Positions 62,791-64,000 of a DNA stretch of 64,000 nt are shown one piece after another (the stretch's first letter is position 1; each line of letters begins with the position of its first letter). The notes beneath the pieces were generated by a model that worked only from the letters and a program-made list of their open reading frames with translations, did not search any database and was not told the DNA's origin. Source of the stretch: Escherichia coli (GTDB lineage: Bacteria > Pseudomonadota > Gammaproteobacteria > Enterobacterales > Enterobacteriaceae); the NCBI RefSeq assembly GCF_030013595.1, contig NZ_CP122768.1, one strand, 5' to 3'. The translations under genes and the position numbers were made by a program.

Positions 62791-63414
62791 ATGAACAAGA
62801 ACTTACTAACAAGGGTAATTATCATTTCGGATGATCTATATTACCTTCAGGGATTAAGTGCAAAACCAGGTAACCATTATCGTTTTTTTATTGAGTGTTT
62901 TTTTTGTTCTCAAAATGCATGTAATAATGACCTAAGTACACTTAGATTTGATAACCGCTTTACCAAAAACGTACTTCTTGTCGCAGTGGATGACGTAAGT
63001 ATACTTGCAAAACTGCCAGATTTGGCCAGGTTTTTAATGATTGTTTCACTCAGACAGATGAAAAACAGAAATATCTTCTTTTCACTTTCAGAGCAAACAT
63101 TCATTAGCCGATATATAAAATTGAATAAACTCATTACTTTGATTAAAAGTACTGATAAAGACCAGCAAGTCAGACAGGTGACTCTGACAAGGTATGAGTG
63201 GGATATCTATTACTTATATTTTAAGATAGATAACAAAAGAATATTGCACACCCTGCTAAAAAAGGATGTCAAGTACATTAGCCACTATAAAATATCGGTT
63301 TTCAACAAGTTTGAAATTGCTTGTGATAGTGATGGCTTTTACATTTTCAAGGCACTTATACAGTTAAGGAGATTTACCGGTTTTAAAAACGTCAGATTGT
63401 ATCAATTGCATTAA
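62791..63414 (+). CDS. putative LuxR/FixJ-type HTH regulator (fimbrial-operon regulator-like)
   Basis: 207-aa AT-rich ORF; C-terminal LTRYEWDIYYLYFKIDNKRILHTLLKKDVKYISHYKISVFNKFEI resembles a LuxR-type HTH (LTxRExxVL...NKxIAxxL.IS..TV..H...I..KL), degenerate. Confidence 0.4.
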   Translation: MNKNLLTRVIIISDDLYYLQGLSAKPGNHYRFFIECFFCSQNACNNDLSTLRFDNRFTKNVLLVAVDDVSILAKLPDLARFLMIVSLRQMKNRNIFFSLSEQTFISRYIKLNKLITLIKSTDKDQQVRQVTLTRYEWDIYYLYFKIDNKRILHTLLKKDVKYISHYKISVFNKFEIACDSDGFYIFKALIQLRRFTGFKNVRLYQLH

Positions 63415-63456
63415 TTATCTCGTTCTATATTAACTCTAAATTTCAAGGATATTAAT

Positions 63457-64000
63457 ATGTTTTCTACTTTCAAAAAAGCAGCTCTGCTGGCAGCTATCGC
63501 ATTACCTTTTTCTACCATGGCTGCACCGACAGTCACTTTTCAGGGTGAAGTAACCGATCAGACCTGTTCCGTAAATATCAACGGTCAAACCAATTCAGTA
63601 GTATTGCTGCCGACCGTAGCCATGGCTGACTTCGGTGCAACTTTAGCTGATGGCCAGAGCGCAGGCCAGACGCCGTTTACGGTTTCTGTGTCTAACTGCC
63701 AGGCTCCGACTGGTGCAGATCAGGCAATCAACACCACTTTCCTGGGCTACGACGTGGACGCTAGCACGGGTGTTATGGGAAACCGTGATACCAGCAGCGA
63801 CGCGGCGAAAGGCTTTGGCATTCAGTTAATGGATTCCAGCACTTCTGGTAACCCAGTAACTCTGGCTGGCGCGACTAACGTACCGGGTTTGACCCTGAAA
63901 GTTGGCGATACTGAAGCCAGCTACGACTTCGGTGCGCGTTACTTCGTTATCGATAGCGCAGCTGCCACTGCCGGTAAAATTACCGCTGTCGCAGAATACA
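63457..64000 (+). CDS. chaperone-usher fimbrial major subunit, 3' end beyond window
   Basis: ATG at 63457 with upstream AAGGAT; MFSTFKKAALLAAIALPFSTMAAPTVTFQGEVTDQTCSVNINGQ...CQAP... signal peptide plus Cys pair, fimbrial-subunit pattern; open to the window end. Confidence 0.7.
   Translation, partial: MFSTFKKAALLAAIALPFSTMAAPTVTFQGEVTDQTCSVNINGQTNSVVLLPTVAMADFGATLADGQSAGQTPFTVSVSNCQAPTGADQAINTTFLGYDVDASTGVMGNRDTSSDAAKGFGIQLMDSSTSGNPVTLAGATNVPGLTLKVGDTEASYDFGARYFVIDSAAATAGKITAVAEY

What the first reader, a model, noticed from the sequence alone, without database searches (positions are those of the whole stretch)
62791..64000. LuxR-like regulator gene followed by the start of a chaperone-usher fimbrial operon
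Seen in sequence: a 207-aa AT-rich ORF with a degenerate LuxR-type HTH at its C-terminus is followed 42 bp later by a fimbrial major-subunit gene (signal peptide, Cys pair) that runs off the window. Established knowledge: several E. coli fimbrial operons are preceded by a dedicated LuxR-family regulator. Inference: an accessory fimbrial locus divergent from the TPS/biosynthesis operon.
Basis: partly seen in the sequence, partly recalled or inferred. Interest (0 to 1): 0.4.

Follow-up and report, generated by a model that had tools for sequence, protein, structure and literature searches.

The report
Unannotated LuxR-type regulator heading fimbrial operon
An E. coli gene annotated only as "hypothetical" is a real, very divergent LuxR/response-regulator-like protein placed directly before a known accessory fimbrial operon (O-island 47), so it is most likely that operon's own regulator, which is useful but not surprising.

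Summary
A 207-aa ORF (62791-63414, about 33% GC) is followed after 42 bp by a fimbrial major-subunit gene (63457 onward) that runs off the window. The window is E. coli chromosome carrying the O157:H7 "O-island 47" type island. In genomes 99.8% identical over this stretch, the subunit gene is followed by chaperone, usher, a 444-aa StbD-like protein and a second chaperone.

Of the eleven family members whose surroundings I examined, seven sit immediately upstream of chaperone-usher operons and three upstream of autotransporter-type proteins. Five of the eight most distant members have an EAL phosphodiesterase gene directly upstream, and three of these have a divergent YqeI/GrvA-like gene beyond it.

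Most likely it is a phosphorylation-independent, operon-proximal transcription factor for these fimbriae, analogous to EcpR/MatA, KpfR and RcsA. Regulation itself is inferred, not shown. Verdict: new member of a known kind, modest interest.

The parts
62791..63414 (+). Gene for a 207-aa atypical NarL/FixJ-like protein. Residues about 7-120 form a degenerate receiver-like domain, and residues about 131-196 form a LuxR/GerE-type four-helix HTH.
63415..63456 (+). 42-bp spacer with an AAGGA ribosome-binding site (63445-63449) and no terminator. This is compatible with co-transcription of the regulator gene and the fimbrial genes.
   Evidence: Sequence. No terminator-like site. Co-transcription is inferred by analogy with kpfR-kpfABCD (PMC7861041).
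63457..64000 (+). Fimbrial major subunit gene, 181 of 186 codons, cut by the window end. It is the first structural gene of a Stb-like chaperone-usher operon.
   Evidence: Pfam Fimbrial 3.8e-13. The full gene and the downstream chaperone, usher, 444-aa StbD-like protein and second chaperone are seen in L001.
62541..62600 (+). Promoter-like block (TTGTTA, 18 nt, TATATT, followed by CATCG...AGGACAT) about 190-250 nt upstream of the start codon. It is the main conserved stretch of the 300 nt of upstream DNA compared with the 54-55% orthologue loci.
   Evidence: Consensus scan. Alignment A5 of window, O157:H7, L019 and L002. Function is inferred only.
61401..62790 (.). 1.39-kb AT-rich (30-37% GC) non-coding spacer between the divergent two-partner-secretion gene (57588-61400, - strand) and the regulator gene. 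It is the presumed shared control region and a candidate H-NS-silenced region.
   Evidence: Composition. No credible ORFs. No remnant of an EAL or other neighbour gene. No Rfam family above threshold. H-NS silencing is inferred from base composition.

Best explanation
The 207-aa ORF encodes a DNA-binding transcription factor of the NarL/FixJ (LuxR-type HTH) superfamily. Its N-terminal receiver domain has degenerated, so it probably works without phosphorylation. It is the first gene of, or lies immediately before, the Stb-like chaperone-usher fimbrial operon of the OI-47 island. Most likely it controls that operon and its own promoter from the AT-rich, probably H-NS-silenced, upstream region, in the way EcpR/MatA controls ecp and KpfR controls kpf.

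Shown here: it is a real gene under purifying selection, its fold and homology are as stated, its DNA-contact residues are conserved, and its family recurs in front of adhesin operons.

Inferred: that it binds DNA, which promoter it targets, whether it activates or represses, that it is co-transcribed with the subunit gene, and that H-NS is involved.
For: Real gene. Against O157:H7 there are 9 synonymous and 3 non-synonymous changes (dS 0.077, dN 0.006). Against the 54% orthologue, pS is 0.80 and pN 0.27. It is present in 380 of 5426 complete E. coli genomes, always as one copy.

DNA-binding helix. K161, S164, K167 and K173 are invariant and S169 nearly so across 21 sequences. They are identical to RcsB K180, S183, K186, K192 and S188. 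RcsB K180 makes a base-specific contact (PMC5829831).

Context. Seven of the eleven members whose surroundings were examined sit directly upstream of Fimbrial-PapD-Usher genes (the window's own gene, P0004, P0020, P0007, P0010, P0014 and the window-like L001). Others sit upstream of YadA-type or autotransporter-like genes.

Precedents. The first gene of kpf is co-transcribed with the fimbrial genes. matA lies 74 bp upstream of ecpA. The auxiliary LuxR-type regulators are all reported to be H-NS-repressed (PMC5651002).
Confidence: 0.6

Rival explanations
1. It is an RcsB auxiliary partner of the RcsA / MatA(EcpR) / BglJ type. It would bind DNA only, or mainly, as a heterodimer with the response regulator RcsB, placing the fimbriae under Rcs envelope-stress control.
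For: In the AFDB search RcsA entries are close structural neighbours outside the family (TM 0.59-0.68). RcsB gives the best PDB sequence and structure matches. The protein has the same length as RcsA (207 aa). Its gene is AT-rich, and all auxiliary regulators are reported to be H-NS-repressed. MatA-RcsB activates a fimbrial operon (PMC5651002). The OI-47 regulator GrvA also depends on RcsB (PMC10877973).
Against: Similarity to RcsA, MatA and YqeH at the sequence-profile level is weak (E 0.017 to 0.1). No RcsAB box better than 3 mismatches lies upstream. Interaction cannot be inferred from fold alone.
Confidence: 0.25
2. It is a negative regulator or anti-activator of fimbriation rather than an activator, acting like KpfR or, from memory, Salmonella FimW. 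It would act by repression or by titrating another regulator.
For: The kpfR paper (PMC7861041) establishes kpfR as a regulator gene in the same position. My recollection that its mutant is hyperfimbriated was not checked in the text read here. Many cryptic E. coli fimbrial operons are kept silent.
Against: Nothing in the sequence distinguishes activation from repression. The closest operon-proximal analogue in E. coli, MatA/EcpR, is an activator.
Confidence: 0.2
3. It is a c-di-GMP-linked switch. The protein would be the output of a module whose input is the neighbouring EAL phosphodiesterase. It would either bind c-di-GMP itself, as VpsT does, or bind the EAL protein.
For: Five of the eight distant members (P0007, P0008, P0009, P0010, P0012) have an EAL gene directly upstream, often overlapping or within about 15 bp. 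In three of these five (P0010, P0012, P0007 loci) I recognised the catalytic-site motifs in the alignment; the other two (L005, L007) have a shortened DDFGTG region. OI-47 carries an EAL gene on the other side of the operon; it corresponds to VmpA by my recollection of the O157:H7 gene order. VpsT is among the structural matches.
Against: The E. coli gene itself has no adjacent EAL gene and no remnant of one. The VpsT W[F/L/M][T/S]R motif (from memory) is absent: the family has [F/V]-x-[S/N/D/R]-R with no Trp. Co-location may only reflect a shared regulon.
Confidence: 0.15
4. It is a genuine phospho-accepting orphan response regulator served by an unlinked histidine kinase.
For: The acidic pair D14-D15 is almost invariant. 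An acidic residue (D/E67) follows strand 3. S86 follows strand 4. A basic residue sits at the Lys109 position.
Against: The profile alignment places an almost invariant Ala65 (20 of 21 sequences) in the phospho-Asp column, and an invariant Arg replaces the catalytic Lys. Helices 2 and 4 are missing in the model. No kinase gene is present in any of the loci examined.
Confidence: 0.07
5. It is a chance ORF or a decaying pseudogene in AT-rich horizontally acquired DNA.
For: It is annotated only as 'hypothetical protein', has no Pfam or NCBIfam match, and has very atypical composition.
Against: The chance of such an ORF is about 1e-7. dN/dS is about 0.08. Homologues at 23-55% identity with conserved length and position exist in several genera. 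The model is confident and has a recognisable fold.
Confidence: 0.02

Closest known systems
EcpR / MatA (E. coli common pilus regulator; Pfam PF27348 + GerE)
   Same: About 200 aa, with a LuxR-type HTH at the C-terminus and a non-phosphorylatable N-terminal domain. The gene lies directly upstream of, and on the same strand as, the major fimbrial subunit gene (matA-ecpA gap 74 bp). The alignment is collinear over the full length.
   Different: Similarity is not significant (hhalign E 0.017, probability 2.7%). There is no PF27348 or GerE Pfam hit. The fimbrial operon it precedes is of a different type (Stb-like rather than Ecp).
RcsA and RcsB (Rcs regulon, NarL/FixJ family)
   Same: Best structural and sequence neighbours with known function. 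The key recognition-helix residues are identical to RcsB K180, S183, K186, S188 and K192. RcsA has the same length and is likewise an atypical partner protein.
   Different: Identity is 13-16%. The position matching RcsB's second base-contacting residue, S184, is His/Tyr here, so specificity should differ. The receiver domain lacks helices 2 and 4 in the model, has Ala at the phospho-Asp column and Arg at the Lys109 column. The gene is located in a fimbrial island, not in the Rcs regulon.
KpfR of Klebsiella pneumoniae (kpfR-kpfABCD)
   Same: An HTH regulator gene that is the first gene of a chaperone-usher cluster and is co-transcribed with it (PMC7861041).
YqeH-YqeI-YqeJ cluster of E. coli K-12 (ETT2 flank)
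   Same: The set of gene kinds is the same. OI-47 GrvA is a YqeI homologue (32% identity, 2e-39). The OI-47 163-aa protein is a YqeJ homologue (1e-18). YqeH is a 210-aa atypical LuxR-type protein.
   Different: YqeH resembles EcpR rather than this family (hhalign E 0.1). No fimbrial operon is present in the yqe cluster.
Salmonella Stb fimbriae (stbABCDE)
   Same: Identical gene order: subunit, chaperone, usher, a roughly 440-aa StbD-like protein, second chaperone. The best NCBIfam hits for the 444-aa protein are the Stb model PRK15247, and for the usher PRK15248, which I take to be the Stb usher model.
   Different: All scores are below the equivalog cut-offs (for example usher 702 against 996 bits), so this is a homologous type, not an orthologue.

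Membership tests
LuxR/FixJ (GerE-type) HTH superfamily | Significant match to the Pfam GerE (PF00196) profile | tested here: not met
   No GerE hit at E<=10 for the window protein. Only 2 of 10 family members reach E<=0.1, best 0.03.
LuxR/FixJ (GerE-type) HTH superfamily | C-terminal four-helix bundle with the GerE fold | tested here: met
LuxR/FixJ (GerE-type) HTH superfamily | Sequence-profile homology to bona fide members, in register over the HTH | tested here: met
   hhalign A3 against RcsB+EvgA+NarL+FimZ gives E 4.4e-6 local and 9e-8 global, with controls at 0.2-0.7. Alignments to RcsB, FimZ and MatA singly use the same register. Recognition-helix residues are conserved.
LuxR/FixJ (GerE-type) HTH superfamily | Sequence-specific DNA binding | not testable with these tools
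   Needs EMSA, ChIP or footprinting.
Two-component response regulators (receiver domain, CheY-like) | Receiver (beta-alpha)5 fold | tested here: inconclusive
Two-component response regulators (receiver domain, CheY-like) | Phospho-acceptor Asp at the end of strand 3 | tested here: inconclusive
   hhalign places Ala65 (Ala in 20 of 21 sequences) in the RcsB Asp56 column. An acidic residue (D/E67 in 20 of 21) lies two positions later, next to a gap in the alignment.
Two-component response regulators (receiver domain, CheY-like) | Conserved Lys at the end of strand 5 (RcsB K109) | tested here: not met
   The aligned position is Arg107 in 21 of 21 sequences.
Two-component response regulators (receiver domain, CheY-like) | Cognate histidine kinase gene nearby | tested here: not met
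   No kinase gene lies in the 20 kb around the E. coli gene or in the loci of relatives.
EcpR/MatA family | EcpR N-terminal domain (PF27348) and significant profile similarity | tested here: not met
   EcpR relatives carry PF27348 + PF00196. The query has neither. The family-to-family hhalign gives E 0.017, probability 2.7%.
EcpR/MatA family | Gene directly upstream of the major fimbrial subunit gene, on the same strand | tested here: met
   42-bp gap here, compared with a 74-bp matA-ecpA gap.
Chaperone-usher fimbrial operon | Major subunit with signal peptide and Fimbrial domain | tested here: met
   PF00419 at 3.8e-13. Signal-peptide-like N-terminus and Cys37/Cys81 are visible in the sequence.
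Chaperone-usher fimbrial operon | Periplasmic chaperone and outer-membrane usher genes in the same operon | tested here: met
   These lie outside the window but are present in genomes 99.8% identical over 62300-64000: chaperone, usher (840 aa), 444-aa fimbrial protein, chaperone. They are also present in O157:H7 and in L019.
Salmonella Stb fimbriae (orthologue) | NCBIfam equivalog scores above the curated cut-offs | tested here: not met
   Usher 701.7 against 996 bits, StbD-like protein 116 against 363 bits, chaperone 112.6 against 550 bits. Only the gene order is the same.
VpsT/CsgD-type c-di-GMP-binding LuxR regulators | W[F/L/M][T/S]R c-di-GMP-binding motif (recalled from memory of the VpsT literature) | tested here: not met
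   No Trp is present. The nearest conserved element is [F/V]-x-[S/N/D/R]-R107. VpsT is only one of many structural matches.

The most novel reading that the evidence does not exclude
The 207-aa protein defines a previously unrecognised family of degenerate-receiver LuxR-type regulators. This family would be one arm of a conserved three-part control module for horizontally acquired adhesin loci in Enterobacteriaceae: a YqeI/GrvA-like ToxR-type regulator with its small membrane partner, an EAL c-di-GMP phosphodiesterase, and this protein. If so, the OI-47 regulators already studied for their effects elsewhere in EHEC (GrvA on LEE and acid resistance; the EAL protein VmpA) would have the neighbouring Stb-like fimbriae as their native target. 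The 207-aa protein would be the c-di-GMP- or EAL-responsive output.
Probability: 0.15. Interest if true: 0.55.

Novelty: new member of a known kind. Interest (0 to 1): 0.3.

Why it matters

Recognising the 'hypothetical' first gene as a LuxR/RcsA-like regulator gives a direct handle for switching these cryptic fimbriae on in the laboratory. It also adds a missing annotation for several hundred E. coli genomes and for related Enterobacter and Citrobacter loci. The recurring neighbourhood (EAL gene, YqeI/GrvA-like gene, adhesin operon) suggests a testable regulatory module. None of this overturns current understanding, because operon-proximal LuxR-type fimbrial regulators are well known.

Tried and rejected
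- **Direct family searches.** Pfam on the protein and on each family member, NCBIfam, and a PDB sequence search gave nothing significant. The only hints were RcsB HTH hits at E 0.36-1.2.
- **Degraded EAL or other neighbour gene upstream.** tblastn of the neighbour proteins against 61300-62900 found nothing below E 0.2. The idea that E. coli lost an adjacent EAL gene in place is not supported.
- **Specific relationship to EcpR/MatA or YqeH.** Profile comparisons were weak (E 0.017 and 0.1), so I file these as analogues, not family.
- **RcsAB box upstream.** The only match is a 3-mismatch palindrome at 62164-62177, within chance expectation.
- **Invertible-element or operator-like repeats.** The palindrome at 62712-62746 is not conserved in orthologous loci. 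No fimS-like long inverted repeats flank a promoter.
- **Rfam scan of 61000-64000.** Only sub-threshold microRNA-model noise.
- **Genome-contig scan with the family alignment.** It returned one locus (Enterobacter cloacae), because the back-translated pattern was too narrow, so no systematic taxonomic census was possible.
- **Plasmid search.** Only mislabelled E. coli chromosomal records.

Full report
**1. What is in the sequence**

It runs from ATG at 62791 to the stop ending at 63414, on the + strand, 207 codons. After 42 bp containing an AAGGA ribosome-binding site and no terminator-like hairpin, a second frame starts at 63457 and runs off the window. Its 181 residues match the Pfam Fimbrial domain (3.8e-13). 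They begin with a typical signal peptide and contain the usual Cys pair (C37, C81).

The ORF sits in a 2-kb block of 30-35% GC, whereas the subunit gene is 53-55% GC. In DNA of that composition an open frame of 207 codons has a probability of about 1e-7, so this is not a chance ORF.

**2. Where the window comes from**

Window 62300-64000 matches 380 of 5426 complete E. coli genomes, one copy each. Three genomes are 99.8% identical and O157:H7 strains are 96.8% identical. The annotated region of the best match shows the following layout:

- The window runs from the flg genes through csg and ghrA to a tRNA-Ser gene (window 40072-40159).
- It then enters an island with fatty-acid/polyketide-type biosynthesis genes, an ABC transporter, and a ShlB/FhaC transporter with a 1270-aa two-partner-secretion exoprotein (57588-61400, - strand).
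- After a 1.39-kb spacer comes the 207-aa gene, annotated 'hypothetical protein'.
- This is followed by fimbrial protein, chaperone, usher (840 aa), a 444-aa fimbrial protein and a second chaperone.
- Next come an SDR gene, a winged-helix regulator, a 163-aa protein and an EAL protein.

By NCBIfam the operon is of the Salmonella Stb type, with the same five-gene order. The best hits are the Stb model for the 444-aa protein and what I take to be the Stb usher model, but all scores fall below the equivalog cut-offs.

**3. Is the 207-aa ORF a gene?**

Yes.

- Against O157:H7 it has 9 synonymous and 3 non-synonymous differences (dS 0.077, dN 0.006, ratio about 0.08), much like the neighbouring subunit gene.
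- Against a 54%-identical orthologue, synonymous sites are saturated (pS 0.80) while pN is 0.27.
- An exhaustive HMMER search of 1.84 billion representatives found only a small family: two orthologue-level sequences (54-55% identity) and eight distant ones (23-32% identity, 195-223 aa).
- A second search with the alignment added Enterobacter, Pseudenterobacter and metagenomic members. All are unnamed or 'hypothetical' and none carries a Pfam domain.

**4. What the protein is**

Direct family searches fail. Pfam gives no GerE hit, NCBIfam gives nothing, and the PDB sequence search gives nothing with three sequences. Deeper evidence converges from four directions.

- *Profile against PDB sequences.* With the 10-sequence profile, four of the seven weak PDB hits are the RcsB DNA-binding domain, in register (E 0.36-1.2).
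- *Profile-profile comparison.* The 21-sequence family against an alignment of RcsB, EvgA, NarL and FimZ gives E 4.4e-6 (local, 172 columns) and 9e-8 (global, 184 columns). Reversed and column-shuffled controls give 0.2-0.7.
- *Predicted structure and Foldseek.* An AlphaFold2 model (pLDDT 79, pTM 0.76) has an alpha/beta N-terminal domain and four C-terminal helices. Foldseek against the PDB returns full-length NarL/FixJ regulators: RcsB, EvgA, VraR, StyR, FixJ, VpsT, LiaR, NarL and DesR (probability up to 1.0, best E 3e-4; TM 0.5 to DNA-bound RcsB). Against AFDB50 the model reproduces the database model of the same protein (TM 0.90). It then finds family members, some of which submitters had already labelled 'LuxR family', and then RcsA, RcsB and other response regulators.

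**5. Details that bear on mechanism**

In the recognition helix the family's invariant K161, S164, K167 and K173 and near-invariant S169 coincide with RcsB K180, S183, K186, K192 and S188. K180 is one of only two residues of RcsB that contact bases (PMC5829831). The other, S184, corresponds to His/Tyr here, so a different target sequence is expected.

The state of the receiver domain is as follows:

- The acidic pair after strand 1 is kept (D14 and D15, in 20-21 of 21 sequences).
- The profile alignment puts Ala65 (Ala in 20 of 21 sequences) in the phospho-Asp column, although D/E67 lies two residues later.
- An invariant Arg107 replaces the catalytic Lys.
- Helices 2 and 4 are missing or poorly predicted.
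- No histidine kinase gene is nearby in any locus examined.

I conclude that it is most likely a phosphorylation-independent, atypical regulator. Known examples of this kind include RcsA, BglJ, GadE and MatA/EcpR, which the Rcs review reports as H-NS-repressed (PMC5651002). H-NS silencing here is an inference from the 30-35% GC content.

**6. Genomic context of the family**

Of the eleven members whose surroundings I could read:

- The E. coli gene and its two orthologue-level relatives (P0004, P0020) precede the same kind of fimbrial operon.
- P0007, P0010 and P0014 precede Fimbrial-PapD-Usher-adhesin operons.
- P0012 precedes ESPR/YadA-type trimeric autotransporter genes.
- P0009 and P0011 precede large secreted proteins with autotransporter-like signal peptides.
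- P0008 is followed by unrelated genes.
- P0013 lies at a contig end.

Five of the eight distant members (P0007, P0008, P0009, P0010, P0012) have an EAL gene immediately upstream. In the three most complete of these EAL proteins (P0010, P0012 and P0007 loci) I recognised the catalytic motifs from memory; the P0008 and P0009 EAL proteins have a shortened central motif. Three of the five (P0008, P0010, P0012) also have, divergently, a Trans_reg_C regulator with a small partner gene.

That regulator is homologous to OI-47 GrvA and to K-12 YqeI (E 1e-15 to 1e-18). GrvA is 32% identical to YqeI (2e-39), and the OI-47 163-aa protein is a YqeJ homologue (1e-18). In K-12, yqeI-yqeJ is preceded by yqeH, another 210-aa atypical LuxR-type gene.

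So the same kinds of genes (an atypical LuxR-type gene, a YqeI/GrvA-like gene plus small partner, and often an EAL gene) recur around adhesin loci. OI-47 contains all of them, arranged around the fimbrial operon. The E. coli gene itself has no EAL gene next to it and no remnant of one.

**7. The upstream region**

Between the E. coli island and a metagenomic version of the same island (L019), nucleotide similarity is lost across the spacer and the first 390 nt of the ORF. It resumes at the start of the HTH-coding part.

Within the otherwise diverged 300 nt upstream, one block is conserved in all three orthologue lineages: 62541-62600. It contains a sigma-70-like TTGTTA-18-TATATT followed by CATCG...AGGACAT. 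I take this as the likely promoter of the regulator gene, giving a leader of about 210 nt. This is inference only.

No Rfam family, invertible-element-like repeats or convincing RcsAB box were found.

**8. Comparison with known systems**

The protein works like the operon-proximal LuxR-type fimbrial regulators.

- EcpR/MatA is about 196 aa, lies 74 bp upstream of ecpA, and acts with RcsB independently of phosphorylation.
- KpfR is the first gene of the kpf cluster and is co-transcribed with it.

The protein is not a demonstrable member of the EcpR family (hhalign E 0.017; no PF27348), nor of the YqeH group. Within the superfamily its nearest characterised neighbours are RcsB and RcsA. Salmonella FimW and FimY and Klebsiella MrkI could be relevant, but I know them only from memory and could not fetch their sequences.

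**9. Verdict**

- The fimbrial locus is already known (OI-47).
- The regulator gene is unannotated and uncharacterised, but it belongs to a well-known kind, so it is a new, very divergent member.
- The conserved association with EAL and YqeI/GrvA-like genes is the one aspect that could lead somewhere new. I rate that reading as possible but unproven.

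Noticed in passing
window 61663-61713: A perfect 16-nt inverted repeat (GGATGTCTGAAATGAT ... ATCATTTCAGACATCC) with a 19-nt loop, predicted at -28 to -30 kcal/mol as RNA on either strand. It lies about 265-315 nt upstream of the two-partner-secretion gene start, inside the AT-rich spacer. It is identical in the closest genome, one arm is altered in O157:H7, and it is absent from the L019 version of the island. It could be an operator or a leader/terminator hairpin.
   Followed up: partly
L001 versus L019 (same island in E. coli and in a metagenomic relative); window 61401-63180 corresponds to the diverged stretch: Structural genes of the island are 72-90% identical in protein (TPS 89, usher 89, subunit 90, second chaperone 72). 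The three regulator-type genes are far more diverged: the 207-aa protein 55%, GrvA 49%, the YqeJ-like protein 48%. Nucleotide similarity disappears across the spacer and the receiver-coding half of the ORF. The regulatory parts of the island evolve faster or were exchanged.
   Followed up: partly
L005, L008, L011, L004, L007 (relatives); L001 17730-19701: There is a recurrent gene set around adhesin loci: a YqeI/GrvA-like ToxR-type regulator plus a small membrane protein, a stand-alone EAL phosphodiesterase, and the 207-aa-family gene. OI-47 GrvA and its 163-aa neighbour are homologues of K-12 YqeI and YqeJ.
   Followed up: partly
window 40072-40159 and about 41070-42060: The island begins next to a tRNA-Ser(GGA) gene. 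The adjacent ycdU is annotated as frameshifted in the closest genome. This is a typical tRNA-associated island boundary.
   Followed up: no
window 6054-6067: A palindromic sequence one mismatch from the RcsAB-box consensus (TAAGAATATTCCCA) lies inside the flgC coding region. It may be chance: 8 matches were found in the window against about 4 expected.
   Followed up: no
L010 (P0011) and L013 (P0013): Two family members sit on mobile elements. One lies at the end of a P4-like satellite island (Psu, AlpA, Ash, primase). The other is near a TraI relaxase and an integrase gene. This suggests that the regulator travels with adhesin cargo.
   Followed up: no
window 62712-62746: A 12-nt inverted repeat with an 11-nt spacer (AGTAAAAAGTTT ... 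AAAATTTTTACT) lies 45-80 nt upstream of the regulator start codon. It is conserved among E. coli but not in the 54-55% orthologue loci.
   Followed up: partly
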